A stretch of DNA of 64,000 nt from an uncultured delta proteobacterium. GTDB taxonomy: Bacteria; Desulfobacterota; Desulfobacteria; Desulfobacterales; JAHEIW01. This document shows, one piece after another, positions 14,630 to 32,237 of this stretch. The DNA is taken from the NCBI GenBank assembly GCA_963706575.1, contig CAVPNL010000001.1, positions 256,001 to 320,000 on the forward strand. Direction: 5' to 3'. The number at the start of each line of letters is the position of its first letter. Position 1 is the first letter of the stretch. The translations under genes were made by a program, and so were the position numbers. Below the pieces are notes generated by a model. The model was given only the letters and a program-made list of their open reading frames with translations, searched no databases and had not been told where the DNA came from.

Positions 14630-14725
14630 TCTCACACTGATCTCTCCAGAACCCATCTGTCTTTTCCTGTACCCTCATTTTTGTTCAGTACGAATTCAAT
14701 TTGTCTCCCCAAATATGGGATCAGT

Positions 14726-14971
14726 AGGTTTCAGGTGCCAGGAGAAAGATGATAGGGTGACAGAAAACAGAGGGTTTGGAGGGGTTTTAGACTAAAGTTT
14801 TACATGAAAATTATAATTCTAACTAATTGTAAATAAAATATAAAATAATATAATAAAATAGGGTAGGGTGCTGGGCCGACCCAGGTCAAGCGGGCGCGGA
14901 GGCCCGCACGACTTCTGGCTATCAACTACTGACTTCTGAAAACTGAGACCTGACACCTGAACACTGACACC
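14726..14971. repeat. Inverted 7-mer array (CAGGTGT/CCTGACA family) enclosing a GTAG-headed palindrome
   Basis: GGTTTCAGGTGCCAGG ... CTGAGACCTGACACCTGAACACTGACACC; the same family occurs at 28630-28719. Confidence 0.55.
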
Positions 14972-14990
14972 CATCCGAAGGGTACAAGAA

Positions 14991-15562
14991 ATGAACAAAA
15001 AAGCGGTTACCAAGAACAATCATTATTTTTTAAAAGAACTGGAGACGTTGTCCCTTGATGCGCTAAAGAATCTTCAGTTTGAAAAGACAAAGCAAACGCT
15101 GGAACGGGCCTATCATAAAAGTGATTTCTACCGGCGGCGGTTTGATGAAAGCGGGGTAAAGCCGGATGATTTCAAAACCCTTGAAGACATTGCGCGATTC
15201 CCTTTTATCGATAAGATGACATGATTAAAATCAAAGCCAGCAACGTCTGGCCCCAGACTGTCGACGAGGCCGTATTTTCATTTGATGAGATCGAGGAATA
15301 TAACGGTCGGGTGTTTATCGATGAAAACGGCCAGGAAGTGGCCCGGGTCAGCCTGGAGTTTAAGAAAACGGGGCTGGATGACTCAGCCAAAGCGGCCATT
15401 CTGCACCGGCTGGCGGCAAAAATCAAAGAAATGACCCAGGTGTCCATGGCACCGGAAGAAGTCCCTTACGGCACCCTGCCGCGGTTTGAATATAAGGTGC
15501 GCCGCTGGACCGATGAGCGCATTGAAGGCCTGGAACGGATCAAATATATCGAGAAGAAATGA
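14991..15562 (+). pseudogene. PaaK-family CoA ligase remnant with a large internal deletion
   Basis: The N-terminal ~75 aa (ELETLSLDALKNLQ...FPFIDK) is joined out of frame at ~15216 to the C-terminal domain (DDMIKIKASNVWP...LPRFEYKVRR); the whole adenylation core is missing. Confidence 0.85.
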
Positions 15563-15592: not shown

Positions 15593-16507
15593 TCAGGCCA
15601 AAGGCGGCGGTGGGGGCGGCAGCTCACCGCGCTCCAGGGCCTCCCGGGCGGCCTTTACCGGTATGCCTGCTTCACAGGGCACAGCCACCTGGCACAGCCC
15701 GCAGCCATAGCCTTCGAACTTGTAAGTCTTTTTGACATATTCTCTGGAGCGAGCCAGGTGCTGCCGGCACTTCTCCTTGTCGTGGCCGGCCTCGGTAATT
15801 GCCCGGACCGGGCAGCGATCAATACATTTGCCGCAGGTTCCATTATCGAAATAGAGGCAATAGGCCCGGTGGTCTGAATACGGTCGGGGAGTTGCCTCAA
15901 TGGATATCCTGGCCACTACCGATCCGACCCGCATGGCTTTGCCCTTTGCGGTGATGAGCCCATCGCACAGACCGAAAGTGCCCAGGCCGGCCGCATGGGC
16001 GGCATGGCGTTCGGACCAGGAAGAGGCATAGGAAAAGCGGTTAGACTTGACGATGGTCCAGTTGGAAACGAGCATCGGAGCGATGGCGGCATGGCCGGCC
16101 TGTTCGAGGCTTTTGGCCACGTGCCGGCGCAGGGCGGCGTTGAATTCCTCGCCGTAGATCCGGATCCGGGCCCATTCTTCGGCTGGATATTTCTTCGGCT
16201 TGCGGTTCGCCTTGCGGACCAGCTCTCGCTGGGGCAAAACCCAAGAAATCACGGTGAGCTCTTCAGCGCCGGCTGATTCTTCCGGGCAGTGCTGGTTGAA
16301 GACCTCCCAGGGGGTCCAGTGGAAGGCCCCAACATATTCCTTGTACTGCTGCCAGATCGTGTCCGCACCGGAGGCGAATCCCACCAGAACATCGTCCCAT
16401 GCCGGTTCCTCAGTTGTGTTTTTCATCGTGTTGGAGGGTGAAGTAGCGATGAAATCTCCGATCAGATCTTTTATCCAGTCTCCCGAAATATTGGTGCTGT
16501 TTTTCAC
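15593..16507 (-). CDS. Epoxyqueuosine-reductase/reductive-dehalogenase-superfamily 4Fe-4S protein (QueG-like, short form)
   Basis: WSERHAAHAAGLGTFG, CGKCIDRCP, CGLCQVAVPC. Confidence 0.8.
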   Translation of the reverse strand: MKNSTNISGDWIKDLIGDFIATSPSNTMKNTTEEPAWDDVLVGFASGADTIWQQYKEYVGAFHWTPWEVFNQHCPEESAGAEELTVISWVLPQRELVRKANRKPKKYPAEEWARIRIYGEEFNAALRRHVAKSLEQAGHAAIAPMLVSNWTIVKSNRFSYASSWSERHAAHAAGLGTFGLCDGLITAKGKAMRVGSVVARISIEATPRPYSDHRAYCLYFDNGTCGKCIDRCPVRAITEAGHDKEKCRQHLARSREYVKKTYKFEGYGCGLCQVAVPCEAGIPVKAAREALERGELPPPPPPLA

Positions 16508-16702: not shown

Positions 16703-17899
16703 ATGAAAATTACCGTATTGGGAGCTGCCGGAAAGATGGCTCCCGGGGTTATTCGAGATCTGGCGGAAGCACCGGAAGTAAAGGAAATTGTGCTGGTCGA
16801 CCTGGCGTCGACCCGGCCGGTCCTCGAGCAAAGAGCCAGTGACTGGGGCAACAACAAAGCGACAGCGGTCTTTGCCGACATCACCGATTCGGAGTCTCTT
16901 CGGGGAGCAATTCGTGGCAGTAACGCGCTGGCCAATTGCACCATCTACTATTTCAATCTTCAGGTGATGGAAGCCTGTCTGGCCGAAGACGTGCATTATG
17001 TCGATATGGGCGGATTGTTTCATGTCTCTCGCAAACAAATGCCCCTCTCAGATCAATGGAAAGCCAAGGACCTGACCGCCGTGCTGGGCATGGGCAGCGC
17101 TCCGGGAATCGTTAATGTGATGAGCCGATATGCGGTCGATCGTCTGGATACCGTAGAATCAATTCATATTCGTGACGGTATCGTCAACCGGGCCAAATCG
17201 GATACCCCTCTGGCGATTCCTTATGCACTGGGAACGCTTCTCGATGAGTTTATCATGAATCCCTATATTTTTGAAAATGGAGAATGGAAAGAGGTTCATC
17301 CCTTTTCCGGGTCGCAGGATATCGATTTTCCGCCACCGGTGGGCACCCAGACCGTTTACTGCACCCTGCATTCTGAAGAAGCGACTATCCCCGTGACATT
17401 TAAACCCAAAGGGCTTAAGCATATGACCTTCAAGCTCGCCCTGCCAAAAGCCTTTGATGAAAAATTAAGATTTCTGGTGGCCCTGGGATTAGGCTCCAAA
17501 GAGCCGGTTAAAATGGGTGATATTGCGGTGGTTCCCAGGGATTTTCTGGTGGCCATCACCGACCGTTTGTCGAAATCTGCGGCCAAACCGGCGGACCACA
17601 AGGTGCTGCGGGTTGACGTCAGCGGTGAAAAAGACGGCCAATCGCGGGATATCCGGGTCGAAATGATCTGCAACCCTTACGCGCCGTGGGATATGGGGAC
17701 AGGACCGCATTCAGTGGGCGTTCCGGTGGGCGTCACATGTCGCATGCTGGGATCCGGCATCATCACCCAACGCGGGGCCCTGCCGGCCGAGGCCTGCGTC
17801 CCGCCGGAGCCGTTTTTTAAATTGCTGGCGGAAAGAAATCTGCATACCGCCGTGATGGTCAAGCATTTTTTGAATTCGGAATCCGTGAAGGCACAATGA
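16703..17899 (+). CDS. Saccharopine dehydrogenase-family oxidoreductase
   Basis: VLGAAGKM, HYVDMGG, LGMGSAPG, LHSEEAT; RBS GGAGG before ATG 16703. Confidence 0.88.
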   Translation: MKITVLGAAGKMAPGVIRDLAEAPEVKEIVLVDLASTRPVLEQRASDWGNNKATAVFADITDSESLRGAIRGSNALANCTIYYFNLQVMEACLAEDVHYVDMGGLFHVSRKQMPLSDQWKAKDLTAVLGMGSAPGIVNVMSRYAVDRLDTVESIHIRDGIVNRAKSDTPLAIPYALGTLLDEFIMNPYIFENGEWKEVHPFSGSQDIDFPPPVGTQTVYCTLHSEEATIPVTFKPKGLKHMTFKLALPKAFDEKLRFLVALGLGSKEPVKMGDIAVVPRDFLVAITDRLSKSAAKPADHKVLRVDVSGEKDGQSRDIRVEMICNPYAPWDMGTGPHSVGVPVGVTCRMLGSGIITQRGALPAEACVPPEPFFKLLAERNLHTAVMVKHFLNSESVKAQ

Positions 17900-17907: not shown

Positions 17908-17947
17908 TAGAATCCAGTCTCAAAAGACATTTTTGAGATAGGTCTTA
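17908..17947. repeat. Internally deleted (TIR-only) copy of the MITE family; probable bidirectional terminator
   Basis: TAGAATCCAGTCTCAAAA-GAC-ATTTTTGAGATAGGTCTTA resembles both TIRs of 2022-2167 and lies between convergent genes. Confidence 0.6.
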
Positions 17948-19384
17948 GGTGATCGCACGATCGGCAGCTTTAACCAGATCGTCTATTTCTTTTGCCAGCT
18001 CCTCTTCTGCAACATAGCGGTTTTCGGGGTTTTTCATCGCAACGTATGCATCCTTAACTCTATCCAACAGGGTTTTCGCACCGGCGCTGTCCCAATCATC
18101 TCTGGCTGACCTAGTAAAATTAAATGGACTGAATCCGTCGCGGCAGTGCTCAAGGGTGTGGTCTATTGTCAGAAAATCCTGGCCGGGGCTGACCGTTGTC
18201 AGCGCCTCCCATGCCAGCTGGTCGTCGTCGAATTGAAACGGTGCAATGAGTCTTCTTGCCATTGCTAACATCTCGTTATCAATAATCAACTGTAGCGGAC
18301 TGACGGCCGTAGCGACCTCCAACTGGCCGACTCCGCCCAAAATATCCAAACCACAGGCGGCCATCCAGGTTGTCAGCATCGAACGTTCGCTAAACGATTG
18401 CTCGTCAATGGTGGGGGAATCGGTACCACTCCCGTAACAATGCGTTGGCAGGCCGAATTCCTTTTTAATGAATTGGACCGCCATTGATGCGCCGCGAATC
18501 GCTTCGACACTGGCTTGAAGGCTGCGGCCGGTACGCATATCCGTTGAGAAAATGATCGGGCAGGCGACCACAGGTGCTCCCGGGTTAACGACCTGGGCCA
18601 TGGCTGTTATTGCCAGTATCTCGGCAACAGCCAGCAGGACCGTACCGGGAATCGTTGCCGGTGCGGTGCCCCCTGCGCCCGGAAGGGAACAGGCATGAAT
18701 CGGAATTCCGGTCTTGGCGGCTTCAAGAATAATCTGGATGTCCATTTTTTTAAAACTTCTGGGTGTCAGTGAACATGCAATCATGCTGATGACCGGATTA
18801 TCGGCAAGTTCTTTGTATCCTCCTGCGGCTGCGGCGCCCAGCGCGATCAGGTGTTCGACACTTTCGCTGCTGTATGGCTGCACCCAGATATGCTTGGGGG
18901 TAGATTTTAATAAGGTTGCCAATGCGTGAACATCCGCTGTTTTTGTCGGAACGTCGTTGGCAAAAAGGTAGGGCAAAAAGCTAATTTCGTCCAGTTGGTT
19001 AATGAGGCCCGCCCATTGGGCGAGATCCTCGAGTGTCACCTTGCGGTAATTTCCGGTTTCAGGATCGATATACCCATGAGCACCGGTGCCGCTGCGCGCA
19101 TAGAAGGTACCGTCCGGACGCGGCAGGCGAAGAGATTTGTTCTTATCCTGGTATCCTAAAACAAATGATTTCGGCGCTTTTTCAATAAGTTTTTCAAGTA
19201 TCGATTTAGGAAATTTTACGCTGTGGTTGTCTTCATCAACCGCCAGATCTGCTTCTTGCAGGATCTTGAACATTTGCGGGTGCGGGTCTAATTTGACACC
19301 ATAAGATTCGAGTAACTCGAATACCTTTTCTTTAAGCATTTTGCGTTGTTCTGGATTTAAATAAAGAAAGTTTGAATCAATCAT
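17945..19384 (-). CDS. Trimethylamine methyltransferase (MttB) superfamily protein, non-pyrrolysine
   Basis: LIEKAPKSFVL, GGTAPATIPG, TDMRTG, FGLPTH..GTDSPTIDEQS, QLIIDNEM, DFLTIDHT. No in-frame TAG. ATG 19384 has a GGAGG RBS. Confidence 0.9.
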   Translation of the reverse strand: MIDSNFLYLNPEQRKMLKEKVFELLESYGVKLDPHPQMFKILQEADLAVDEDNHSVKFPKSILEKLIEKAPKSFVLGYQDKNKSLRLPRPDGTFYARSGTGAHGYIDPETGNYRKVTLEDLAQWAGLINQLDEISFLPYLFANDVPTKTADVHALATLLKSTPKHIWVQPYSSESVEHLIALGAAAAGGYKELADNPVISMIACSLTPRSFKKMDIQIILEAAKTGIPIHACSLPGAGGTAPATIPGTVLLAVAEILAITAMAQVVNPGAPVVACPIIFSTDMRTGRSLQASVEAIRGASMAVQFIKKEFGLPTHCYGSGTDSPTIDEQSFSERSMLTTWMAACGLDILGGVGQLEVATAVSPLQLIIDNEMLAMARRLIAPFQFDDDQLAWEALTTVSPGQDFLTIDHTLEHCRDGFSPFNFTRSARDDWDSAGAKTLLDRVKDAYVAMKNPENRYVAEEELAKEIDDLVKAADRAIT

Positions 19385-19400
19385 GTTGGGCCTCCGCTTT

Positions 19401-21008
19401 TTATTTCCTTCGAATTCGTTCGCGATTCTCGTCTTTTTGAGCCAGTTCCTCCAATCCGTCTTTGCCGAATTTCTGAATTTTAACGCCCCCGGAAAGTTTC
19501 GGAAAATCGGACATGAGGCAAAGCTCATCGGGCAGTTTATGCGGGGCGATTTTGTCTTTGATGAATTCCCGGATCTCTTTTAACGTGAGTGATTCCCCCG
19601 GTTTCGGAATCAGGCAAACACAGATGGATTCCCCCAAGACCGGGTTGGGGGTGGCCACCACACACACCTGTTCCACATGGGGATGCTCGATGATCAATGA
19701 CTCCAGTTCATAGGGGTAAATTTTATAGCCGCCGCGGTTGATCAAATCTTTGGTGCGTCCGTAAATTTTATAGTAGCCGTCATCTTCGCGCGACGCCAGA
19801 TCACCCATGAAAAGCCAGCCATCCACAATCTGTTTGTGGGTCTCTTCAGGATTTTTCCAGTATCCTTTCATGACATGCCATCCGCGAAGGGTAAGCTCTC
19901 CGATTTGGCCATCCGGCAGTTCGTCACGGTTTACCGGATCAACGACCCGCATTTGCGTATCGGTGACCGGCTTGCCGATATATTTTTCGCGAATATCCAG
20001 CGTCGAAGGGTAGGGGCACATGGTTCCCAGACCCGGCCCCACCTCCGATGCCCCCCAGAAAGAGGTCAGGTATACGCCCATTTCTTTTTCCACCTGGGCG
20101 ATGAGCCCTTCCGGCGCAATCATTCCAGCAATCAAACCGGCCCGTAAGGAACTGAGATCGTAATTTGAACGGTTATTATGGTTTAATTCCATGATATAGT
20201 GCGGCGGTGCGCCGAGTTGCAGGGTAATCTTCTCGCGTTCGATCAGCCTGAAAGCGTTCTCGACATCGAATTTATCCATTAACACCAGGGTAGACTGCAG
20301 GACGATGGGCTGTATCAAGATTGATCCGCAACCATAGGAATGGCTCATTGGCAAAATACCAATAAAAATATCCTCCGGCGAGGCCTGGATGCCCACTGAG
20401 TATTCCCAGCCGGCGCGCACGGCCGCATAATGGGTGATCATCGCTCCTTTGGGCTTTCCGGTGGTGCCGGAGGTATACAGCAACATGCACAGATCTTCCT
20501 TTGGATCGATGGAGACCGCCTGCAAGGCTTTGCCTTTGCCTTTATCGATTAATTGCCCATAAGTGCTGACGGAATCGCCCTGGCCGTTTCCGACAACGAT
20601 AATTTGTTCGAGGTCGGGCAATTCCGGTTTGATTTTTAAAATTTCATTAAGGTAATTGTAACCGTCCCATTGCCTGAAAATAAAAAGTCCTCTGACTTCT
20701 GAATTTTTCAGAATGAATTGCGCCTCGGACATGCGATAAATGGCATTTAGCCAGACAACGATGACGCCAATCTTTTGCAGGGCGTAAAAAGCCGTGACCA
20801 GCTCCAGGGAGTTTTTCATGTAAATGGCGACCCGATCGCCTTTTTTAAAACCCATTTCGGCAAGACTGACTGCTAACGCTTCTGCCTGGTCGTTGAGTTG
20901 CGAATACGTTATGCGCGCGTCTGCGTCTATAATCGCAACTTTGTCGGGAGATTCGACCGCCGCTTTTTCTAGTACTTGTCCCAGTGTCAGATTTTCTAAT
21001 CCCTCCAT
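19401..21008 (-). CDS. AMP-forming acyl/aryl-CoA ligase
   Basis: YTSGTTGKPKG, FWGASE, GWLFMGD, GRTKDLINRGG. Confidence 0.93.
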   Translation of the reverse strand: MEGLENLTLGQVLEKAAVESPDKVAIIDADARITYSQLNDQAEALAVSLAEMGFKKGDRVAIYMKNSLELVTAFYALQKIGVIVVWLNAIYRMSEAQFILKNSEVRGLFIFRQWDGYNYLNEILKIKPELPDLEQIIVVGNGQGDSVSTYGQLIDKGKGKALQAVSIDPKEDLCMLLYTSGTTGKPKGAMITHYAAVRAGWEYSVGIQASPEDIFIGILPMSHSYGCGSILIQPIVLQSTLVLMDKFDVENAFRLIEREKITLQLGAPPHYIMELNHNNRSNYDLSSLRAGLIAGMIAPEGLIAQVEKEMGVYLTSFWGASEVGPGLGTMCPYPSTLDIREKYIGKPVTDTQMRVVDPVNRDELPDGQIGELTLRGWHVMKGYWKNPEETHKQIVDGWLFMGDLASREDDGYYKIYGRTKDLINRGGYKIYPYELESLIIEHPHVEQVCVVATPNPVLGESICVCLIPKPGESLTLKEIREFIKDKIAPHKLPDELCLMSDFPKLSGGVKIQKFGKDGLEELAQKDENRERIRRK

Positions 21009-21056
21009 GTCAGAAACCTCTTATCTTTAATCAATCAAAGCCAGATCTTAATCCGG

Positions 21057-21175
21057 GTGTTATTTGTTATTCGTTAGTGGTTAATAGATGTCTGTTTTGC
21101 GAATCATGTTCGCGGCTGGAAGCCGCTCCCACAAATAACGATTAACGAATAACTGATACCCAATAACGCGTAACG
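21057..21175. repeat. Inverted 7-mer array (GTTATTC/GAATAAC) enclosing a REP-like palindrome
   Basis: GTTATTTGTTATTCGTTAGTGGTTA ... ATAACGATTAACGAATAAC. The central TTCGCGGCTGGAAGCCGCTCCCAC reads GTGGGAGCGGCTTCCAGCCGCGAA on the minus strand. Confidence 0.6.
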
Positions 21176-21202
21176 CCGAATTGAGCACTGGTCAATTCGG
21201 CA

Positions 21203-21994
21203 TTAGATTTTAAGGTATCCCAGATCAGACGAAATCGTTTCGCAGGTATTTTTTACCAGGTCGATGATGTGATCCAGATCATCGGTCTGGTTGCGTAAAC
21301 CGGCGGGCAGCGCGATCCCCAGGGCGGCAACGACCTGACGGGAGTAATCCCGGATGGGAGCTGCAATGCCGATGACGCTTTCGACCGCTTCTTCTTTTTC
21401 CAAAACGTAACCCTGGTCGCGAATCTGCTCCAGGCGAAGGCTGAACGCATCTGTATCGGTAATCGAGAGCGGGGTATAGGGTTTTAACGGATATTTTTTT
21501 AAAATGCGCTTGAGATCCTGCGGATCGAGGCTTGACATTAAAACCATGCCCAGCATGCCGTAGTTCAGCGGGCGTCGCCAGCCGACTTCCGATGAAATCC
21601 GGATCATTCCTTGCCCCTCGCGTTTGTCGACATAAACCAGCTGATCTTCCATGTTGACCCCCAGCAGGACGGTGGCACCGACCTCGCTTTGCAGTCGGGT
21701 CATCGAATAAGAAGCTGCCTGGCGCAAGGAAAATGACGAAAACACAATGCCGCCCAGTTCAAAAAGACGCATCCCCAGCTGATATTTTTTTGACTGCGGG
21801 TCTTGCTGGAGATAACCGCGGGTGGTAAGGTTGGAAATCAGGCGTTTGACGGTTGTTTTATTGAGACCGGTACGATTGACCACTTCCGTCAGGCTCATCG
21901 CTCTATCCTGAAAGCTGAAGCAATCTAAAATATCGAGAGCCCGTTCCAGCGCCTGCACTTTATAAATCGAATTTTTATCTTTATATTGTTTCAT
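21203..21994 (-). CDS. IclR-family transcriptional regulator
   Basis: VQALERALDIL, HTH LNKTTVKRL, YQLGMRLFELG, IRDQGY...GIAAPIRD. Confidence 0.95.
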   Translation of the reverse strand: MKQYKDKNSIYKVQALERALDILDCFSFQDRAMSLTEVVNRTGLNKTTVKRLISNLTTRGYLQQDPQSKKYQLGMRLFELGGIVFSSFSLRQAASYSMTRLQSEVGATVLLGVNMEDQLVYVDKREGQGMIRISSEVGWRRPLNYGMLGMVLMSSLDPQDLKRILKKYPLKPYTPLSITDTDAFSLRLEQIRDQGYVLEKEEAVESVIGIAAPIRDYSRQVVAALGIALPAGLRNQTDDLDHIIDLVKNTCETISSDLGYLKI

Positions 21995-22023
21995 ATCATG
22001 AATATAAATTTTATTAGATGAAA
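21989..22023. promoter_or_regulatory. Tandem IclR-type operator overlapping the iclR start codon
   Basis: TTTCATATCATGAAT (21989-22003) and TTTTATTAGATGAAA (22009-22023), 20-bp period. Confidence 0.55.
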
Positions 22024-22141
22024 TTTATACCATGATTTTTTATAAGGTCAATATGAAAATTTAGAAATCCAAATTTAAACAGATTTTATAAATCAATTTG
22101 TACTTGACAGAAAGTGCCAGATCGTAATAAACAAAAAATCT

Positions 22142-22168
22142 ATGAAACATTATTTCATAATATGAAAC
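22142..22168. promoter_or_regulatory. IclR-type operator upstream of the second Hcr-like operon
   Basis: Perfect palindrome TTTCATA-A-TATGAAA (22153-22167) plus an ATGAAA half-site 20 bp upstream; TTGACA at 22104. Confidence 0.65.
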
Positions 22169-22279
22169 ACCTTTATCTGATTCAGATCTCCGGCGATGTT
22201 CGGACTAACATATAATTCCCGGCCTATCTGCCATCACAGAAGACGGACTTGTTTCAGAATTGATGAAAAGGGGGCAGTT

Positions 22280-23257
22280 GTGAGATTACCAAAATTTGAA
22301 TATTTTGAGCCAGAAGATCTAAAAGCGGCCGTCGCCATTCTGCAAAAAGAGCCGGCTGCTAAAATCCTCGCGGGTGGGACCGATCTGCTGGTGAATATGA
22401 AGCATCGGGTTGAGTGCCCACCGGTTCTCGTCAATATTAAAAGAATAGCGGACCTGGACTACATCCGGCAGGATAATGGGGATATCCGCATCGGTGCCTT
22501 AACCCCCCTGAAACGGCTGCACGCCGAATCTCTTGTTGTTAAAAATTTTCCCGGTCTGGCCCAGGCGGCTTCTGCGGTGGGCTCCTACCATCACCAGGTT
22601 ATGGGAACAATGGCGGGTAACATCTGTCAGCAAAATCGATGTATGTATTTTAATCAATCCAAATGGTGGCGAAGCTCGCGACCGACCTGTTACAAGGCCG
22701 GAGGCGAGATCTGTCATGTAGTCAACAAAAAAGAGATCTGTTATTCAGCCTACTGCGGCGACATGGCGCCTGCCCTGATGGTCGTCAATGCCCGCATAGC
22801 GCTGGAGGGCCCCGACGGGTCAAAAGAGATGCCGATCGAAGACTTCTTTTCAGGGGATGGCAAATCACCCCTGGTCAAAGAACCGGCGGAGATCTTAAGG
22901 GAAATCATTATACCCAAAACGTCAGCCGATGGAATTTCCAGCTATATCAAATTTGCCAATCGCGAGAGCATTGACTTTCCCATCGTTGGCGCCGCCTTGT
23001 GGGCATCTGAAACCGAAAAACAGTATCGGGTGGCGTTTACGGCTGTTGATCGCAAGCCAGTGAGAGGCAAAGAGGCGGAAGATTTTTTAAACGGTAAGGA
23101 ATTGAGCGCGGAGAACGCGAAGGCCGCTTCCGATCTGGCGGCCAAGGCAGCCAAACCGGTAAAAACGTCTGTTTATTCGCCGACTCACAAAAAACGCATG
23201 ATGGGAGTGTTGCTGCAAAACGCGGTGAATGAAGCAAAGAGGAGGTCAAGCGAATGA
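22280..23257 (+). CDS. FAD/[4Fe-4S] subunit, 4-hydroxybenzoyl-CoA reductase beta-like (HcrB-like, copy 2)
   Basis: AGGTDL; NICQQNRCMYFNQSKWWRS...CYKAGGEICHV...CYSAYCGD; RESIDFP. GTG start at 22280 after AAGGGGG. Confidence 0.92.
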   Translation: MRLPKFEYFEPEDLKAAVAILQKEPAAKILAGGTDLLVNMKHRVECPPVLVNIKRIADLDYIRQDNGDIRIGALTPLKRLHAESLVVKNFPGLAQAASAVGSYHHQVMGTMAGNICQQNRCMYFNQSKWWRSSRPTCYKAGGEICHVVNKKEICYSAYCGDMAPALMVVNARIALEGPDGSKEMPIEDFFSGDGKSPLVKEPAEILREIIIPKTSADGISSYIKFANRESIDFPIVGAALWASETEKQYRVAFTAVDRKPVRGKEAEDFLNGKELSAENAKAASDLAAKAAKPVKTSVYSPTHKKRMMGVLLQNAVNEAKRRSSE

Positions 23258-23730
23258 AAGAGGCCATCGAACTGCATATTAACGGTGATACCTATGAGTT
23301 GCTTGTTTCGCCAAACTATACCCTGCTGGAGGTCTTGAGAGATAAGCTGGGTTTGATGGGCACCAAACGCGGATGTGACCTGGGGGCCTGCGGGGCGTGT
23401 ACGGTGCTACTTGACGGCGAGGCCTGTCTGTCCTGTTTAATGCTTGCCGTCGATGCCAGGGGCAAGCAGATTCTGACCATTGAAGGGCTGGCGGAAGGCG
23501 GCGACCTTCACCCGCTGCAGGACGCCTTTGTGCAAAAAGGTGCGCTGCAATGCGGTTTTTGCACCCCGGGTATGATCTTAACCGCCAAAGCAATCCTCGA
23601 TGAAGAACCGCATGCCAGCGAAGATGTGATCAAGCATAAGATGGCCGGGAACCTGTGCCGCTGTACCGGATATAAAAAAGTGATTGAAGCGGTGATGAGT
23701 GTTGCAACCTCATCCGGCAAGGAGGTATAA
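23254..23730 (+). CDS. 2x[2Fe-2S] subunit (HcrC-like, copy 2)
   Basis: GCDLGACGACTV, QCGFCTPG, NLCRCTGY; ATGA overlap with the upstream gene. Confidence 0.95.
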   Translation: MKEAIELHINGDTYELLVSPNYTLLEVLRDKLGLMGTKRGCDLGACGACTVLLDGEACLSCLMLAVDARGKQILTIEGLAEGGDLHPLQDAFVQKGALQCGFCTPGMILTAKAILDEEPHASEDVIKHKMAGNLCRCTGYKKVIEAVMSVATSSGKEV

Positions 23731-26019
23731 ATGCGAAAAAAATTCAATGTCGTTGGCACCAGATTACCGATGATGGATGCCGCCCAGAAAGCCAAGGGAA
23801 GCGCCCTGTTTGCCGATGACCTCGTGCTTCCCGGGATGCTTTACGGAAAGATATTGCGAAGCCCGCTGCCCCACGCAAAAATATTGAATATTGACACTTC
23901 CAAAGCAGCCAGACTACCGGGTGTAAAGGGCGTTGTCACCGGCAGCGATATCCCCGATCGACTGTATGGAATTGTTCCCAAGGCCAGTGATGAGTATGCC
24001 CTGGCCAAGGGCAAGGTCCGCTATATTGGAGACGATGTCGCCGCGGTTTGCGCCGTTGACACCGAGATTGCCGAAGAGGCCCTGGAACTGATCGAGGTGG
24101 ATTATGAGGAGCTTCCGGCGGTATATGACCTTTTTGAAGCCAAAAAGGACGGCGCACCGGTCATTCATGAAGGCATAAAAAACAACACGTCCTTTGCCAT
24201 CAAGAAAGAGTTCGGTGATGTCAAAAAGGCCTTTGCCGAATCCGATGCTGTTTTTGAAGATACATTTTTCTCCCAGGCCGTAAATCATGCCCCCCTTGAG
24301 CCGCACGCCGCCCTGGCCCAATTCGACCCGCTAAATGGGGAGCTCACGCTCTGGAGCTCAACCCAGATACCGTTTTTTTTAAGACGCAATCTATCCCACA
24401 CCCTTCAGATTCCGGAAAGTAAGGTGCGGATAATCAAACCCAAGGTCGGCGGCGGGTTTGGGCAGAAGATTGACATGTTTGCCAAGGATTTCTGTGCGGC
24501 CTGGTTTGCGATGCAACTGGGAAAACCCGTAAAATTCGTCTACGACCGGGAAGAGGTTTTTATCGCCACCCGGCAAAGGCACCCCATGTATATTACCGTT
24601 AAGACCGGTTTGAAAAAGGACGGGACCATCCTGGCGCAACAATTTCAATCTTACGCCGACGGCGGGGCTTATAACAGCACCGCTCCGACGATGATGGCCC
24701 TTTCCTGCTTTTTCCTGATGATCCCCTATAAAGTTCCCAATCTGTTTTATGAGGGTTATCATGTCTATACCAACAAACCCGTGGGCGGGGCCATGCGCGG
24801 GCACGGTATTCCCCAGGCGCGCTTTGCCGTTGAACGCCAATTGGACCTGATGTGCGCACGACTCGGGCTCGATCCGGTCGAGGTTCGTATAAAAAACAGC
24901 ATCCATGCCGGGGAACCTCATTCGGCCGGATTCGTCATCAATACCTGCGGATTTTCAGAATCGGTTCAAAAGGCGGCCGACGCCATCGGATGGTCAGAAA
25001 AGCGGGGGAAGTTGCCCCTTGGCCGGGGCGTGGGATTAGCCGGCGCTTCGTTTCCCAGCGGGGTCAGCAATATGAGTCATATCAGTTCCGGTGCGGTGGT
25101 TCAGGTGGGCCGGGACGGGGCGGTCAATGTATTATCCGGCGCTGCGGATATCGGCCAGGGAGCGGAAACTGTTATCAGCCAGATCGTGGCCGAAGAGCTG
25201 GGCGTGCCCCTTGAAGACATTCGTATGACGGCAGCCGACACGGGGATTACACCGCTGGACCCGGGGACCTTCGGAAGCGGTGTGACCGTCAGGGCCGGCA
25301 ATGCCGCGCGGCTGGCCGCGGCCGCGGTCAAACAAAAACTCTTCGATTTTCTGGCAGATAAACTTGAGGCCAACGTTGCGGATTTAGTTGCCAAAGAACG
25401 CAAGATTTTTGTAAAAGGTTCTCCGGAAAAAGGAATGACCTTCCTGGAAGCCCTGAAGGCCTATCAATATGCGGATCTGCCCATGCCGATCGTGGGAAGA
25501 GGGTCATGGATGGCGCCGGCCGCTGAACCGACCACCCTGTTTAAGCAGGATGGTAATTTTTCCCCCAACTATTCTTTTATGACCCAGGCGGCTGAAGTCG
25601 AAGTGAACCTCATTACCGGCAAGGTAAAACTGCTGCGGATGGTCACCGCCCATGACTGCGGACGGCCCATTAACCCGATGCTGGTTGAGGGGCAGCTAGA
25701 GGGCTCTGTTGTCGGCGGCATGGGTCAGGCCCTGTATGAAGATGTGGTCGTTCAAAAAGGGCAGGTGATGAATCCTTCATTTCTGGACTACGGCTTTCCA
25801 ACCTTTCTGGAAATGCCGGAAATTGAGGCCATCGAAGTCGAAACGGATGATCCTATCGGGCCGTATGGAGCCAAAGAGGCCGGAGAAGGTACCCAGCTGT
25901 CGCCGGCACCGGCGATTGTAAACGCTATTTATGACGCCATCGGTGTTGACTTTATGGAGCTGCCGATTACACCCGAAAAGATTCTGGATGCGCTGGAAGC
26001 GAAGAAGAAAAAAGAATAA
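23731..26019 (+). CDS. Molybdopterin large subunit, 4-hydroxybenzoyl-CoA reductase alpha-like (HcrA-like, copy 2)
   Basis: SSTQIP, GGGFGQK, GAMRGHG, AADIGQG, GAKEAGEG. Confidence 0.92.
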   Translation: MRKKFNVVGTRLPMMDAAQKAKGSALFADDLVLPGMLYGKILRSPLPHAKILNIDTSKAARLPGVKGVVTGSDIPDRLYGIVPKASDEYALAKGKVRYIGDDVAAVCAVDTEIAEEALELIEVDYEELPAVYDLFEAKKDGAPVIHEGIKNNTSFAIKKEFGDVKKAFAESDAVFEDTFFSQAVNHAPLEPHAALAQFDPLNGELTLWSSTQIPFFLRRNLSHTLQIPESKVRIIKPKVGGGFGQKIDMFAKDFCAAWFAMQLGKPVKFVYDREEVFIATRQRHPMYITVKTGLKKDGTILAQQFQSYADGGAYNSTAPTMMALSCFFLMIPYKVPNLFYEGYHVYTNKPVGGAMRGHGIPQARFAVERQLDLMCARLGLDPVEVRIKNSIHAGEPHSAGFVINTCGFSESVQKAADAIGWSEKRGKLPLGRGVGLAGASFPSGVSNMSHISSGAVVQVGRDGAVNVLSGAADIGQGAETVISQIVAEELGVPLEDIRMTAADTGITPLDPGTFGSGVTVRAGNAARLAAAAVKQKLFDFLADKLEANVADLVAKERKIFVKGSPEKGMTFLEALKAYQYADLPMPIVGRGSWMAPAAEPTTLFKQDGNFSPNYSFMTQAAEVEVNLITGKVKLLRMVTAHDCGRPINPMLVEGQLEGSVVGGMGQALYEDVVVQKGQVMNPSFLDYGFPTFLEMPEIEAIEVETDDPIGPYGAKEAGEGTQLSPAPAIVNAIYDAIGVDFMELPITPEKILDALEAKKKKE

Positions 26020-26165: not shown

Positions 26166-27341
26166 CTAGATCATCACTTTTTTGAGCGTCTGACTGATCG
26201 ACCGCAGATCCTTGAAGTTTCCCATTGGCAGAAAGTAGTCCACGTAGGGCAGGGCAGCGCTCATCCCCCGGCAGATCGGCTCGTAATCCCGCGTTCCCAT
26301 CAGCGGATTTAACCATATTATTTTATAGGTTTTGCGTTTCAGGAAAGCCATCTGGTTATCGAGCAAATCGATTTCGCCTCTGTCCCAGCCGTCACTGAAA
26401 ATTATAACAATATCTTTGTGGGAAAGCTGCCTTGCCCCGAAGGTTTCATTGAACAGCTTAAGGCAATGGCCGATGCGTGTCCCGCCGCCCCAGTCAGAAA
26501 TAGCTCCCGGAATTTGCGTAACGGCAGACGTAAAATCACCCGTCTCGAATTGATGGGTTACTCTGGAAAGATCGGTTGAAAACAAGAAGATTTCGGTCTG
26601 TCGGTCAATTCGTTTAAGGGCATGGATGAACTGCAGGATCATCAGGGTATAAATATCCATTGAACCGCTGACATCGCAAAAAAAGATAACCCGGCGTTTT
26701 TTTATTTTTTTCTTTCTAAAATCAAGCAGGATCAGTTCCCCGCCGAATTGCATGTTTTTTCTCAGTATTTTTCGCAGACTGACTTCTTTTCCCCGTATGG
26801 TATATTGAAACCGTCGACTGATCCGGTTGGCCAGCGGTTGCAGTAATCTGTTGATTGTTTCGTAGACGTCTCTGTCGCCGTCAAAACTGATTTCCTGCAA
26901 TTGATCTGATTGCGAAAGGGCTTGCGGGCTGTAGCGCAGCGCCCATTGTTTGCTGGCATTTGGTTCAGCATCCCCGCCGGTCTGAAGATAGCTCATTTTT
27001 TCTTTAACGGCGCTGAGGATGTCCTCTTCGGTTTCGCTTTCCCCGACGCCTTCAGCCGGAACCTGAAGTGTGGCCCGTTCCTTGGGCAACCAGAAATCAT
27101 AAAATAAGTGATCGAACTTGGGGAGATTTTCCTTACAGCTGATAAAATTGCTGCGAAGCAAACAGTGAAATGTCTGAAGGTTGGAAATGTCAATCAACGG
27201 CAAGCCCGCAAGTGTGTCTAATACAGCCGGCAGGGAAACCGAAATATCGTTATCTCGCAACAGATGCGAAAATCGAACGATATTTTCGATCAATCCTTCT
27301 TCTGAGCGGTACGACGAATTGTCGGTCTTTTCATTCGGCAT
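26166..27341 (-). CDS. VWA-domain protein, CoxE-like
   Basis: CDVSGSM MIDAS motif, WGGGTRIG, SDGWDRG, IIWLNPL. Confidence 0.92.
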   Translation of the reverse strand: MPNEKTDNSSYRSEEGLIENIVRFSHLLRDNDISVSLPAVLDTLAGLPLIDISNLQTFHCLLRSNFISCKENLPKFDHLFYDFWLPKERATLQVPAEGVGESETEEDILSAVKEKMSYLQTGGDAEPNASKQWALRYSPQALSQSDQLQEISFDGDRDVYETINRLLQPLANRISRRFQYTIRGKEVSLRKILRKNMQFGGELILLDFRKKKIKKRRVIFFCDVSGSMDIYTLMILQFIHALKRIDRQTEIFLFSTDLSRVTHQFETGDFTSAVTQIPGAISDWGGGTRIGHCLKLFNETFGARQLSHKDIVIIFSDGWDRGEIDLLDNQMAFLKRKTYKIIWLNPLMGTRDYEPICRGMSAALPYVDYFLPMGNFKDLRSISQTLKKVMI

Positions 27342-27351
27342 TTTTATGTGA

Positions 27352-27484
27352 TTTAAATTGAGCGATTGTCGAGGTTGCCGCAGCTACAAGGAAGATGTCG
27401 TTCCGCTATAGTTGACTATGTGGGACGGCATCTGACGCGGTAGATGTGGTGAGATCGGCAATCCCGGAGGGTTTCAAATTTAAA
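27352..27484. repeat. ~130-bp long imperfect hairpin repeat
   Basis: Nested arms TTTAAATTGA/TCAAATTTAAA, GATTGTCGA/TCGGCAATC, AGATGTCGTTCC/GGGACGGCATCT, and central ATAG/CTAT. Confidence 0.6.
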
Positions 27485-27547
27485 AAATTAAAAATGACAG
27501 AATTCCTCACGAATAAAAACATTTTCATTTTTTTAAATTTGGAACGC

Positions 27548-28471
27548 TCATTTTAAGTCGGAGTATGAAGTTAATAGATGGGTGCGTTTTTCCGGATTTG
27601 GCCAGATATTGGATTTGAAATTTTGAATATCTTCGCGGTACTTGAAAATGCATCCCAACGTCTGTTCGACCGTTTCTTCATCCAGGACGTTGCGGTGAAG
27701 TTTAAGAAGGGCTTCGGCCCAGTCAAGGGTTTCGGACACACCCGGTCTTTTCATCAGGTCTTCCTTGCGGATATTTTGCATGAAAATCGCAATTTGATGG
27801 ATAAGCGACTCTTCCAGTTTCGGTACCCGCGCGTGGATGATTTTCATTTCCTTGTCCAGGTCCGGATAATCGATCCAGTGATAAAAACAGCGCCGTTTGA
27901 GGGCGTCGTGGATGTCTCGGGTTCGATTGGATGTAATCACGACCATGGGTTTCTGGGTGGCTTTCAAAGTGCCGATTTCCGGGATCGATACCTGAAAATC
28001 GGACAGGATTTCCAGTAGAAATGCTTCAAATTCCTCATCGGCACGATCCAATTCATCGATCAACAGTACCGGTGTGTTGCCCTGAGAAGTCTGGATGGCC
28101 TCCAGCAACGGTCTTTTGATCAAATAGGGCTCACTGTAAATTACCTGGCCCATTTCTTCGGGTGACAGGCCGCATTGCTCGTCCATTTTGATACGCAGCA
28201 GTTGTTTGGGATAATTCCATTCATACAGGGCCGAATTGGCATCCAGGCCTTCGTAACATTGAAGCCGGATAAGTTCAGTGGAGAGAATGTCCGCCAGGAC
28301 CAGGGCGACCTCGGTTTTTCCGACGCCGGGTTCTCCTTCTAGAAATATGGGTTTGCTGAGTTGGTATGAGAGATAAAGCACGGTCGCCAAAGATTGATCC
28401 GATATGTATCGATGCCGGGTCAGTTGTTCACGGATAACATCAATGGAAGAAAAGCTGTTTTTTGCGCTCAT
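27548..28471 (-). CDS. MoxR-family AAA+ ATPase, CoxD-like
   Basis: LEGEPGVGKT, IRLQCYEG, LIDELDRADEEFEA, SNRTRDIHDALKRRC. Confidence 0.94.
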   Translation of the reverse strand: MSAKNSFSSIDVIREQLTRHRYISDQSLATVLYLSYQLSKPIFLEGEPGVGKTEVALVLADILSTELIRLQCYEGLDANSALYEWNYPKQLLRIKMDEQCGLSPEEMGQVIYSEPYLIKRPLLEAIQTSQGNTPVLLIDELDRADEEFEAFLLEILSDFQVSIPEIGTLKATQKPMVVITSNRTRDIHDALKRRCFYHWIDYPDLDKEMKIIHARVPKLEESLIHQIAIFMQNIRKEDLMKRPGVSETLDWAEALLKLHRNVLDEETVEQTLGCIFKYREDIQNFKSNIWPNPEKRTHLLTSYSDLK

Positions 28472-28629
28472 AAAAGTACCTTTTTATTTTGAGCATGCTT
28501 ATGCTCTAAGCGATCCTCTTTTGCGGCGAAACCCTAATTCTATTATTATGCAGTTTTTGGTTAGGTCAAGGGAATTCAACCATAGGTTAACCGTCGCCGG
28601 AGGTGAAAGCTGGAGTCGTGTACTAAAAA

Positions 28630-28719
28630 GGTTTCGGGTGTCAGCAAACAGATGACTGAGGGCAGGAGACAGTCTGCCCTTGTCTTCTATCCTCTGTATC
28701 TTCCTGACACCTGACACCT
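28630..28719. repeat. Inverted 7-mer array (GGTGTCAG / CTGACACC)
   Basis: GGTTTCGGGTGTCAG ... CCTGACACCTGACACC, directly downstream of icmF. Confidence 0.55.
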
Positions 28720-28726
28720 ACTTATC

Positions 28727-31700
28727 TTACATGCCGCGTCGGTATTGCCCCCCGACATCATAAAGCGCCTGGGTAATTTGCCCCAGGCTGCATACCCGCA
28801 CGGTATTCATCAGTTCCGCAAAAATATTTTCGCCCGAGAGGGCAACTTTTTGCAAGCGTTCCAGCGCTGCCGGCGCTTCCTTTTCGTGGCGTTTTTGAAA
28901 ATCTGCTAGACGCGTCAGCTGAGATTGTTTTTCCTCTTCGGTTGCCCGGGAAAGTTCGATGCTCTCATTGAGTTGATCCGGGGCGGCATCGGGATCCCGA
29001 AACGTGTTCACGCCGATGATGGGGAGTTTGCCGCTATGTTTTAGTGTCTCAGAATAAATCGATTCCTCTTGAATTTTACTGCGTTGGTAGCCTGTTTCCA
29101 TGGCGCCCAGGACCCCGCCGCGTTTGGTGATTTGATCGAATTCATATAAGACCGCTTCTTCTACAAGACGGGTCAATTCTTCGTAGATAAAGCTTCCCTG
29201 GTTCATATTTTCATTTTTGGCCAATCCCCATTCACGGTTTATAATGAGCTGGATAGCGAGGGCACGCCTGACGGATTCGGCACTGGGTGTGGTGATGGCT
29301 TCATCAAAGGCGTTGGTATGGAGACTGTTGCAATTGTCATATATGGCACAAAGCGCTTGCAGCGCTGTACGGGTATCATTGAATTGGATGTCCTGGCTGT
29401 GTAACGATCGCCCGGATGTCTGGCAGTGATATTTCAGCATCTGGGAGCGAACGGATCCGCCGTAAAGTTCGCGCATGGCGACCGCCCAGATTCGGCGCGC
29501 CACTCTCCCGATAACCGTATATTCAGGATCCATCCCGTTGGAGAAGAAGAAAGATAAATTCGGCGCAAAGCTTTCAAGGGGCATGCCGCGGGACAGGTAA
29601 TATTCTACATACGTAAAGCCGTTGGACAGCGTGAGCGCCAGCTGAGTAATCGGATTGGCGCCGGCTTCGGCGATATGATACCCTGAGATAGAGACGCTGT
29701 AATAATTGCGGACGTTGTTATCAATAAAATATTGCTGGATGTCCCCCATCACCCTCAGCGCGAATTCGATCGAAAAAATGCAGGTATTTTGTCCCTGATC
29801 CTCCTTAAGAATATCTGCCTGCACGGTACCGCGCACATTGGAAAGCACATCCGCTTTAATATTTCCATATTGCTCCTTGGAAGGCGCTTTACCGTTTTTG
29901 GCTTTGAACTTGTCTACCTCCTGGTCAATAGCGGCATTAAAAAACATCGCCAGCATCATGGGCCCCGGGCCATTGATGGTCATGGAAACGGATGTGCTGG
30001 CTGCGCACAGATCGAAACCGTCATACACGACTTTGACATCATCAAGGGTGCAGATGCTGACGCCTGAGGTGCCGATTTTCCCATATATATCCGGTCGTAT
30101 GTCCGGGTCACAACCATATAAGGTGACGGAATCATAAGCGGTTGAAAGCCGTTTGGCTTCATAATCTGCCGACAGCATTTTGAAGCGCCGATTGGTGCGG
30201 GCGGGGTCTCCCTCGCCGGCAAACATGCGGGTCGGCTCTTCATCCGCCCGTTTTAACGGGAACACGCCCGCCGTGAATGGAAATCTACCGGAGACATTTT
30301 CTTCCCGCATCCAGCGGTATATCTCCGCCGGATCTTCAAAGCGGGGCAGGGCAATTTTGGGAATCCGTATATGCGATAATGACTGCGTATACAAGGGAAC
30401 CCTGATGTCTCGATCCCGAACCTGATACACCAGTTCATCTTTACTGTAGGCATCTCTGATTTTTTCCCATTCCGCTGTGGAGTCTAAGGTCTCTTTTTTC
30501 AGCGTCGCTTCGGCTTTTTCAATTTCGTCTTTGAGCATTGAAACCAGCTTCAAAGAATCTTCTGTTTCATCATTTGCACCGGCTGATGCGTATGTTTCCT
30601 TTAAGTGCCAGACTTTTCTGAGATTTTGAGCCTGTTCGCGTGTTTGCCGGTGGTATTTTCTGATCGAATCAGCGATTTCAGAAAGGTAGCGGGTACGTGA
30701 CTGTGGAATGATGATCGTCTTGGATGAGGAGGTCCGGGTTTGAGGTCGGGGTAAGCTGGCCTTGAATTCAACACCTGTTTTTTCAGCAATTTTATCAATA
30801 ACTGCATGATAAAAGGAAGTGACCCCGTCATCATTAAATTTGGCAGCGATGGTTCCAAATACCGGCATTTCTTCAGGATCCATATCCCATAATTTTTGAT
30901 TGCGTTGGACTTGCTTGCGAACATCACGCACCGCATCATCTGCGCCGCGCTTTTCAAATTTGTTGATTACCACCAGGTCTGCAAAGTCGAGCATATCAAT
31001 TTTTTCGAGCTGAGTGGCGGCTCCAAATTCGCTGGTCATGACATAGATGGATAAGTCGACCAGATCGGCAATACTGGAATCTCCCTGCCCAATACCGGCG
31101 GTTTCAGCAATGATCAGGTCATAGCCGGCTGCCTGTGTCACCTCGATGGCATCCGGCAGCACCTCCGGCAATTCGGTTTGCGAGCGTCGTGTCGCCAGAG
31201 AACGAAAGTAAACCCGCGCATTACTGATGGCGTTCATCCGGATGCGATCGCCTAAAAGCGCCCCGCCGGTTTTTCGCCGGGATGGGTCACAGCTGATGAT
31301 GGCAATATGGACATCTTTAAGATCATGCAGCATCCGTAATATCAGTTCATCGGTCAAGGAGGATTTGCCGGCACCGCCTGTTCCCGTAATGCCGATCACC
31401 GGGGCTTTGCGTTTTTCGAGTTTCTGTGACAGCTGGGCCCTGATGGCCTTAAAGTTCCCGTTTCCCCGGGTTTTGGCTTGCTCTGCGGCGCTGATCAGAT
31501 TGGCCACCAGCAGCGGGTTGGCGGGGTTCAGGTCGTTTAAATCAAAATTGTTATTTTGGACGGTCGAAAAATCGATGGCCGCAACCATGTGGTTAATCAT
31601 TCCCTGGAGCCCCATGCGGGCACCATCTTCCGGTGTATAAATCTTGGCGACGCCGTATGACTCCAGTTCTTTGACCTCCTCCGGTACAATCACGCCGCCG

Positions 31701-32005: not shown

Positions 32006-32091
32006 TTTACCTCCTCAACTTCGGTTATAAATCTTAATTGCCATCAACAGCCGAACATAAGTCGAAAACATAAGGATGTTGATTACAGCAC

Positions 32092-32237
32092 TAGAAGTGG
32101 TTTCAAAACCCCATCTAAGGGACAATGGCTGCGTTGCAGTCCTCCGATAAATGCTCACATACCAATGTATGCTGCGCTTTCTCGATCGGCCTGCGCCTTG
32201 CCCTTGAACCTTATCTGAGGCTTTGAAACCACTTCTA
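32092..32237. mobile_element. 146-bp MITE-like element with perfect 16-bp terminal inverted repeats
   Basis: TAGAAGTGGTTTCAAA ... TTTGAAACCACTTCTA with a central CATAC-N4-GTATG hairpin; its end coincides with the TAG stop of the TetR gene. Confidence 0.75.

What the first reader, a model, noticed from the sequence alone, without database searches (positions are those of the whole stretch)
17945..26019. IclR-controlled module coupling a non-pyrrolysine MttB methyltransferase and CoA ligase to an Hcr-like Mo enzyme
Seen: iclR, the CoA ligase and the mttB-like gene (16-bp gap) are transcribed away from the hcrBCA-like genes, with shared operator boxes. Established: characterised non-Pyl MttB proteins demethylate aliphatic quaternary amines (glycine betaine, carnitine, proline betaine) onto a corrinoid protein; Hcr reductively removes a ring substituent from an aryl-CoA. 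Inference: catabolism of a methylated aromatic or N-heteroaromatic acid (for example an N-methylpyridinium carboxylate such as trigonelline or homarine, or an N- or O-methylated benzoate) by demethylation, CoA activation and Mo-dependent reduction. That would be a new substrate class for MttB. No cognate corrinoid protein is in the window.
Basis: partly seen in the sequence, partly recalled or inferred. Interest (0 to 1): 0.7.

Follow-up and report, generated by a model that had tools for sequence, protein, structure and literature searches.

The report
Probable anaerobic trigonelline demethylase
This sediment bacterium carries a vitamin-B12-dependent enzyme that probably strips the methyl group from trigonelline (N-methyl-niacin) without oxygen, a reaction for which no such enzyme is known, while the neighbouring ligase and molybdenum enzyme look like a separate, more common unit.

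Summary
The genes, the 16-bp gap and the operator boxes are real. The proposed three-step pathway is not supported; the substrate guess is. The IclR/ligase/Hcr-like unit is widespread without the methyltransferase: none of 16 other genomes with the Mo enzyme had it, and one congener has the whole unit without it. The ligase-linked methyltransferases form one recent clade. The methyltransferase lacks all four betaine-binding residues of MtgB. It belongs to an undescribed MttB subfamily whose other members sit in or beside anaerobic nicotinate operons (12 of 26 loci of 6 kb or more; 0 of 34 control loci). 6-Hydroxynicotinate reductase occurs in 9 of 14 carrier genomes versus 27 of 387 others. 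This genome holds that operon and corrinoid partners on other contigs. Best reading: an oxygen-independent N-methylpyridinium (trigonelline) demethylase feeding nicotinate catabolism, a new substrate class for MttB. Against: no nicotinate gene flanks the window's own clade (0 of 18 loci), and one 91%-complete carrier lacks the operon. No activity is shown. No earlier scan note proposing this was found.

The parts
17945..19384 (-). Non-pyrrolysine MttB-superfamily methyltransferase (479 aa) of a nicotinate-operon-linked subfamily; the core of the finding
   Evidence: PF06253; model pLDDT 85.5, TM about 0.89 and Z about 45 to MttB and MtgB; tree; dN/dS 0.12-0.19 in 9 of 9 pairs
19401..21008 (-). 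AMP-forming acyl/aryl-CoA ligase (535 aa), substrate unknown; part of the IclR-Hcr unit
   Evidence: best PDB match salicylate-AMP ligase, E 2.5e-65; in 17 of 22 genus genomes
21059..21205 (.). Hairpin-forming dispersed repeat between iclR and the ligase
   Evidence: inverted repeats; 23 further partial genome matches; replaced by other sequence in orthologues
21203..21994 (-). IclR-family regulator
21989..22002 (.). Palindromic operator box overlapping the iclR start
22153..22167 (.). Palindromic operator box upstream of hcrB
22280..23257 (+). HcrB-like FAD subunit with the four-cysteine insert; GTG start and ribosome site conserved in orthologues
   Evidence: only PDB match at E<=1e-30 is 1rm6_B
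23254..23730 (+). HcrC-like 2x[2Fe-2S] subunit
23731..26019 (+). HcrA-like Mo subunit, below the Hcr family cut-off
   Evidence: best PDB match 1rm6_A, E 2e-161; TIGR03194 751 versus cut-off 994.55
16703..17899 (+). Saccharopine-dehydrogenase-family oxidoreductase, convergent with mttB; travels with the window's MttB clade
   Evidence: co-directional and directly upstream of mttB in L019 and L035
26166..28471 (-). CoxE-like VWA and CoxD/MoxR-like AAA pair, likely accessory to the Mo enzyme
   Evidence: follows hcrA in L117 and L130, VWA also in L131 and L132

Best explanation
Two units meet here. (1) The MttB is a corrinoid-dependent N-demethylase for an N-methylpyridinium compound, most likely trigonelline (N-methylnicotinate); N1-methylnicotinamide and homarine are the near alternatives. 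Co(I) of a corrinoid protein encoded elsewhere (best candidate C15:31892-32530, next to an MtgA-like gene) attacks the N-methyl group and the neutral pyridine leaves. The methyl passes to tetrahydrofolate and the Wood-Ljungdahl pathway. Nicotinate is broken down by the Ndh-Hnr-enamidase operon on contig C5. (2) IclR, the ligase and HcrBCA-like genes are an older, widespread Desulfobacterota unit, probably for CoA activation and reductive dehydroxylation of a hydroxy-aromatic acid. In one recent lineage mttB came to lie behind the ligase, apparently by inversion relative to its saccharopine-dehydrogenase-like neighbour, and probably uses that transcript. Shown: gene anatomy, fold, subfamily membership, neighbourhoods, co-occurrence. 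Inferred: substrate, partner, direction of the Mo enzyme, co-transcription.
For: Of 26 subfamily loci of 6 kb or more at 37-75% identity, 12 carry nicotinate-pathway genes (10 with Ena, Hnr or NdhL); 0 of 34 control loci (456 kb) and 0 of 10 other MttB neighbourhoods of this genome do. Identities of those genes: enamidase 2vun is the only PDB match, E 7.7e-141; NdhL 3hrd is the best match; 43-45% to annotated 6-hydroxynicotinate reductases. Order-wide, Hnr is in 9 of 14 carriers versus 27 of 387 non-carriers (Fisher p 2e-7, overstated by kinship). Six of 9 regions fetched hold nicotinate genes. In G489 the order is ALDH-ndhSFL-ena-hnr-mttB-TRAP-nicotinamidase; in G638 mttB lies between the ALDH and hnr. 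The window's clade is nested among these lineages (SH-aLRT 98 and 100). R97, Q169, Y171, F279, H315, Y317, Q354 and E356 are invariant in 60 of 60 subfamily rows and variable in wider MttB representatives. MtgB Y97/R312/H348/F356 map to T100/H315/G350/A358. The genome has the nicotinate operon, corrinoid proteins, three RamA-type activators and acetyl-CoA synthase. One corrinoid protein serving several MttBs has precedent (MtqC; PMC12155760).
Against: No nicotinate gene or corrinoid gene flanks the window's own clade (0 of 18 loci at 75% or more). G015 (91% complete) has an 80%-identical MttB but no Ena, Hnr or NdhL orthologue was found; nor in G011 (85% complete). Five of 14 carriers lack Hnr. 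No orthologue of the subfamily's cognate corrinoid protein was found in this genome. In this assembly ndhL, hnr and the ALDH on C5 are split into several ORFs; ena and hnr are intact in two congeners. Loci are not independent (L049, L050 and L007 are near copies; so are L066, L072 and L076). No activity or expression data.
Confidence: 0.55

Rival explanations
1. The window's clade has left the nicotinate pathway and now demethylates a non-aromatic N-methyl amine or amino acid, working with the saccharopine-dehydrogenase-like enzyme (C-N cleavage) and an aldehyde dehydrogenase.
For: The SacDH-like gene is in 7 of 9 carriers and 0 of 52 non-carriers. It neighbours mttB in 10 of 18 clade loci, in two orientations. 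G015 has both genes but no nicotinate operon was found.
Against: The pocket motifs are almost unchanged from nicotinate-operon members such as L154. In G022 and G026 the SacDH orthologue lies away from the subfamily gene, among sarcosine-oxidase-like genes, so the profile may reflect amine-scavenging genomes.
Confidence: 0.18
2. One reading: an N-methyl heteroaromatic acid such as homarine is demethylated, CoA-activated by the adjacent ligase and transformed by the Hcr-like enzyme, all under IclR.
For: Ligase-mttB order is kept in 11 loci at 84-93% identity, with gaps as short as 1-21 bases in several, including a genome of another family (G747). All four genus genomes with the 85%-or-higher ligase type have mttB behind it. 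Purifying selection on mttB.
Against: One recent clade only. None of 16 other HcrA-orthologue genomes has the subfamily. G006 has iclR-ligase/hcrBCA without mttB, and G020 and G002 have HcrA with no mttB found. The ligase pocket shows no co-adaptation.
Confidence: 0.1
3. O-demethylase making 4-hydroxybenzoate from p-anisate or vanillate-type acids for the ligase and Hcr.
For: Fits the local gene order. The quaternary-amine aromatic pair of MtgB is absent. Two conserved cysteines and a histidine at strand ends could form a metal site (geometry untested).
Against: Characterised aryl O-demethylases are UroD-superfamily (PMC13222342). The subfamily context is pyridine catabolism. No linkage to Hcr outside one clade.
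Confidence: 0.07
4. An ordinary aliphatic betaine demethylase of the MtgB/MtpB/MtcB kind in a chance location.
For: All characterised non-pyrrolysine members listed in PMC13080624 act on such substrates; one distant member (L022) lies near a BCCT transporter.
Against: None of the four MtgB binding residues is kept, including the arginine reported as conserved in all characterised members. It would not explain the nicotinate operons.
Confidence: 0.05

Closest known systems
MtgB, glycine betaine:corrinoid methyltransferase of Desulfitobacterium hafniense (PDB 2QNE, 9YCE) and E. limosum MtpB/MtcB/MtyB/MthB
   Same: Fold (TM 0.88, Z about 44), no pyrrolysine, presumed Co(I) attack on an N-methyl group.
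   Different: About 24% identity; none of Y97/R312/H348/F356 kept; the subfamily has its own invariant set and sits with nicotinate genes.
Anaerobic nicotinate pathway of Eubacterium barkeri (Ndh 3HRD, Hnr, enamidase 2VUN)
   Same: Relatives of these genes surround subfamily members and occur on contig C5 of this genome.
   Different: No methyltransferase entry step turned up in my searches. The order of pathway steps is recalled; the primary paper was not held.
Aerobic trigonelline (TgnAB) and homarine (HomABCDE) pathways
   Same: Same proposed substrates.
   Different: For homarine the ring is opened before demethylation, and TgnAB is a flavin- and oxygen-dependent ring-opening pair (PMC13236597, passages). 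The route proposed here removes the methyl first and needs no oxygen.
4-Hydroxybenzoyl-CoA reductase HcrCAB of Thauera aromatica (PDB 1RM6)
   Same: Best PDB match of the large and FAD subunits; four-cysteine insert, RGHG motif and C-terminal Glu shared; orthologues lie near a CoA ligase in 10 of 16 loci.
   Different: All three subunits are below the NCBIfam cut-offs; substrate untested.

Membership tests
MttB superfamily, non-pyrrolysine | PF06253 domain above cut-off and MttB TIM-barrel fold | tested here: met
   208.7 bits versus 25; TM about 0.89, Z 44-45
MttB superfamily, non-pyrrolysine | No amber codon or pyrrolysine at the active-site position | tested here: met
   Gly320 aligns with the pyrrolysine of 7xcl; Gly in 60 of 60 subfamily rows
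MttB superfamily, non-pyrrolysine | Corrinoid protein, activator and methyl-THF transferase available | tested here: inconclusive
   None in the window; present elsewhere in the genome, but no orthologue of the subfamily's own corrinoid protein
MtgB-type betaine demethylase | Y97, F356 (cation-pi) and R312, H348 (carboxylate) | tested here: not met
   T100, A358, H315, G350, read from the alignment with a two-residue offset between chain and paper numbering (my inference: all four residue types match at that offset)
Nicotinate-linked MttB subfamily (defined here) | Nested in the clade and shares its invariant pocket residues | tested here: met
   columns 204 and 232 lay in the search patterns, so their conservation is circular
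Nicotinate-linked MttB subfamily (defined here) | Lies in or next to a nicotinate operon | tested here: not met
   0 of 18 loci of the window's clade; operon on another contig
Nicotinate-linked MttB subfamily (defined here) | Demethylates an N-methylpyridinium | not testable with these tools
   needs an enzyme assay
4-Hydroxybenzoyl-CoA reductase | NCBIfam TIGR03193/4/5 cut-offs | tested here: not met
   174/257.8, 751/994.55, 256/404.55
4-Hydroxybenzoyl-CoA reductase | Extra [4Fe-4S] cysteine insert in the FAD subunit; RGHG motif and C-terminal Glu in the Mo subunit | tested here: met
   not diagnostic, as three other FAD subunits of this genome have a similar insert. The insert's role as an iron-sulfur site is recalled.
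4-Hydroxybenzoyl-CoA reductase | Reductive dehydroxylation of an aryl-CoA | not testable with these tools
   needs an enzyme assay

The most novel reading that the evidence does not exclude
The window's lineage has rewired a pyridinium demethylase into a wholly new oxygen-free route: homarine (or trigonelline) is demethylated by the corrinoid system, the pyridine carboxylate is activated as a CoA thioester, and the Hcr-like Mo enzyme acts on it, all under one IclR.
Probability: 0.1. Interest if true: 0.85.

Novelty: new variant of a known kind. Interest (0 to 1): 0.66.

Why it matters
Most non-pyrrolysine MttB proteins have no known substrate, and the characterised ones act on aliphatic quaternary amines (PMC13080624). 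A subfamily tied to nicotinate operons gives a named, directly testable candidate for demethylating an aromatic nitrogen. Trigonelline has been flagged as a possible 'as-yet unknown aromatic methylamine' substrate of anaerobic methylotrophy (PMC10805028). For homarine the described route opens the ring first, with enzymes resembling the oxygen-using TgnAB (PMC13236597). If right, this supplies the oxygen-free entry step for N-methylpyridinium metabolites in sediments, a marker for finding it in metagenomes, and a link between one-carbon and vitamin B3 turnover. One cob(I)alamin assay would settle it.

Tried and rejected
Sigma-70 scan: 6 sites versus 6.3 expected, none informative. Operator search found no box at the C5 nicotinate operon or at corrinoid genes, so no shared regulon is shown. 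Public RNA runs: contigs cover genes and gaps alike and cannot show transcription or co-transcription; not used. One low-depth contig in DNA run X1 joins 21075 to 17921, bracketing ligase plus mttB; single record, not used. Plasmid search for the MttB: 141 records, best listed about 29% identity. ESM Atlas gave only a lead for Hnr (0.84) and only the family name for the SacDH-like protein. The Desulfatiglans phenol cluster has a ligase and Hcr-like subunits (PMC6114531, passages), but I could not compare sequences, so orthology is open. A conserved 360-aa neighbour of distant HcrA orthologues had no Pfam match. The careful tree did not finish; both trees are quick searches with SH-aLRT only. 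No complex prediction was run. Large genome searches scored only 2-4 candidates per genome, so absences there are soft.
Full report
Observation. The arrangement is as described: iclR, an AMP-forming ligase and an MttB-family gene on the minus strand, 16 bases between ligase stop and mttB start at 19384, and hcrB/C/A-like genes on the plus strand. The operator is more than chance. TTTCATANNATGAA occurs four times in 5.67 Mb, twice in this gap, once before another iclR and once inside a gene, and it is kept in orthologous gaps. Close relatives of these genes are in records named Desulfobacterales, and the DNA occurs in sediment and estuary metagenomes. The genome is crowded with paralogues: 11 MttB-family genes, about 10 xanthine-oxidase-family sets and over 40 ligase hits. 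Adjacency therefore needed a conservation test.

The ligase-Hcr unit stands alone. The HcrA-like protein has orthologues in 17 of 401 phylum genomes. In the same draw the MttB subfamily profile hit 3 genomes (this one, G280, G310), none of the other 16 (4 candidates scored per genome). Of the 16 HcrA regions fetched, 10 hold a CoA ligase, several a TRAP transporter and a regulator, and none an MttB. Two carry a 50-52% orthologue of this very ligase directly before hcrB (L106, L107), so the ligase-Hcr link is old. Within the genus the ligase is in 17 of 22 genomes, HcrA in 6 and the MttB in 6; three have both HcrA and MttB. G006 has iclR-ligase/hcrBCA in the same order with no mttB (L117). Many congeners keep the ligase directly behind icmF with no hcr genes. 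Ligase pocket motifs barely differ with or without mttB. The Mo enzyme works like Hcr on sequence grounds: best PDB match, four-cysteine insert, RGHG motif. It misses all three NCBIfam cut-offs, so I do not file it as Hcr.

The methyltransferase. It folds as MttB, has Gly at the pyrrolysine site, and is under purifying selection (dN/dS 0.12-0.19 in nine pairs). The MtgB residues shown to bind glycine betaine (Y97, F356, R312, H348; PMC13080624, parts 1-3 of 6 read) map to T100, A358, H315 and G350. That paper states R312 is conserved in all characterised members. Instead, R97, Q169, Y171, F279, H315, Y317, Q354 and E356 are invariant in 60 of 60 subfamily rows and vary in distant representatives.

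Where the subfamily lives. I examined 71 subfamily loci (duplicate fetches left out). The 18 at 75% identity or more have the ligase in 11, an hcr gene in 4, the SacDH-like gene in 10, and no nicotinate or corrinoid gene. The 53 at 37-75% have no such ligase or hcr gene, a corrinoid protein in 21 and nicotinate-pathway genes in 13. Among the 26 of 6 kb or more the figures are 14 and 12. Controls: 0 of 34 other catabolic loci (456 kb) and 0 of 10 other MttB neighbourhoods of this genome. The genes were identified by PDB and annotation: enamidase, NdhL, Hnr, nicotinamidase and Rid. Across 401 order genomes, 14 carry the subfamily and 36 carry Hnr; the overlap is 9 of 14 against 27 of 387. In five carriers from five families hnr lies within about 10 kb of mttB. 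G489 reads ALDH-ndhSFL-ena-hnr-mttB-TRAP-nicotinamidase; G638 has mttB between ALDH and hnr. Some loci are near copies, but the link recurs on many branches, and the ligase-linked sequences form one recent clade (SH-aLRT 97) nested inside them (34 of the rows, 70 rows; quick trees).

Mechanism. A Co(I)-dependent N-demethylase placed at the head of nicotinate catabolism points to an N-methylpyridinium whose product is nicotinate or nicotinamide. Trigonelline is the simplest fit; the invariant arginine could hold a carboxylate (inference). Nicotinamidase neighbours in L023, L040 and L153 keep N1-methylnicotinamide open. A subgroup with altered first strands and a TPP enzyme may use another substrate. 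This genome has the nicotinate operon on C5:255.8-268.8 kb, at least nine corrinoid proteins, an MtgA-like gene, three activators and acetyl-CoA synthase, so the route can work in trans. The four genus genomes with the ligase-mttB order all show Ena or an NdhL orthologue. The SacDH-like gene is co-directional with mttB in L019 and L035 and convergent in the window's group, which suggests mttB was inverted and came under the ligase transcript (inference).

Against. The window's own clade never touches nicotinate genes. G015 (91% complete) has the enzyme with no operon, ligase or Hcr found. The cognate corrinoid orthologue is missing. The C5 genes are partly split in this assembly. The SacDH-like gene tracks carriers closely (7 of 9 versus 0 of 52), although elsewhere it sits with sarcosine-oxidase-like genes. 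Demethylation alone could pay, since sulfate reducers are recalled to demethylate betaine without using the rest, but a change of substrate in this clade is not excluded.

Literature. Ten searches were run. Searches looked for a corrinoid-dependent or anaerobic trigonelline demethylase and listed none; I saw titles and abstract openings only, and most subscription papers are not covered. Passages read: PMC10805028 (trigonelline as a possible unknown substrate), PMC13236597 (homarine ring opened before demethylation), PMC13222342 (O-demethylases are UroD-type), PMC12155760 (shared corrinoid MtqC), PMC6114531, PMC10331938 (Ndh subunits). PMC12482172 and PMC8318568 gave only reference-list hits. 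The E. barkeri pathway paper was not held; the step order is recalled. I read no supplements; MttB alignments or networks in them could already show this subfamily. A word search of earlier scan notes found nothing; one note on another genome, sharing a few words with this protein, concerns the Hnr helper gene.

Verdict. A real locus whose interesting part is the methyltransferase: a new variant of a known kind, probably the oxygen-free entry enzyme for trigonelline or a close relative (about 0.55). The coupling to the ligase and Hcr-like enzyme is recent and probably incidental (about 0.1 that it is a pathway). Interest 0.66.

Noticed in passing
G000 C5:255808-268809: Anaerobic nicotinate operon (ALDH, amino-acid-synthesis-family gene, ndhSFL, enamidase, hnr, UPF0280, TRAP); ndhL, hnr and the ALDH are split into several ORFs in this assembly, possibly sequencing errors.
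   Followed up: partly
window 16703-17899 and 15593-16507: SacDH-like oxidoreductase and a divergent QueG-like Fe-S protein; in L001 and L029 an aldehyde dehydrogenase lies between them. Function unexplained.
   Followed up: partly
window 17945-19384, residues C204, C232, H315, E356: Conserved cysteines, histidine and glutamate at strand ends could form a metal site, unusual for MttB; geometry untested.
   Followed up: no
L004, L005, L007, L049-L052, L058, L065, L069: A subgroup of the MttB subfamily with different first and second strand motifs, often with a TPP enzyme, a second IclR type and a divergent Ndh; may handle a different methylpyridine.
   Followed up: no
L041:16790-19156, L005:5043-7415, L137:6890-9253: A distinct 788-aa Mo enzyme type recurs beside subfamily genes and an XRE-cupin regulator; candidate pyridine or pyridinium hydroxylase.
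   Followed up: no
window 26166-32885; L118-L128: In most congeners the ligase follows tetR-icmF directly, with iclR and hcr genes lost stepwise (L003 has an internal iclR deletion, L129 an hcrA remnant). The ligase may serve IcmF-linked branched acids.
   Followed up: partly
G000 C1:136542-137981 (L025): A 40%-identical MttB paralogue between an HD-domain gene and FrhB-like and TPP-oxidoreductase genes, near a PaaK-like ligase; same order in G014.
   Followed up: no
window 4313-8294 and 43098-47230: Two more xanthine-oxidase-family sets in the window, each beside a CoA ligase and an ABC transporter; the small subunit at about 42960-43460 appears split.
   Followed up: no
L108:7084-8175, L110:15968-17062: A conserved 360-aa protein with no Pfam match accompanies distant HcrA orthologues in five loci.
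   Followed up: partly
G022 C1:1166361-1167785: A subfamily mttB interrupted by one TAG, lying behind a TRAP transporter; pseudogene or readthrough not examined.
   Followed up: no
window 14630-15562 and 33250-34299: PaaK-like ligase fragments (a 113-aa C-terminal piece; a 349-aa truncated ORF).
   Followed up: no
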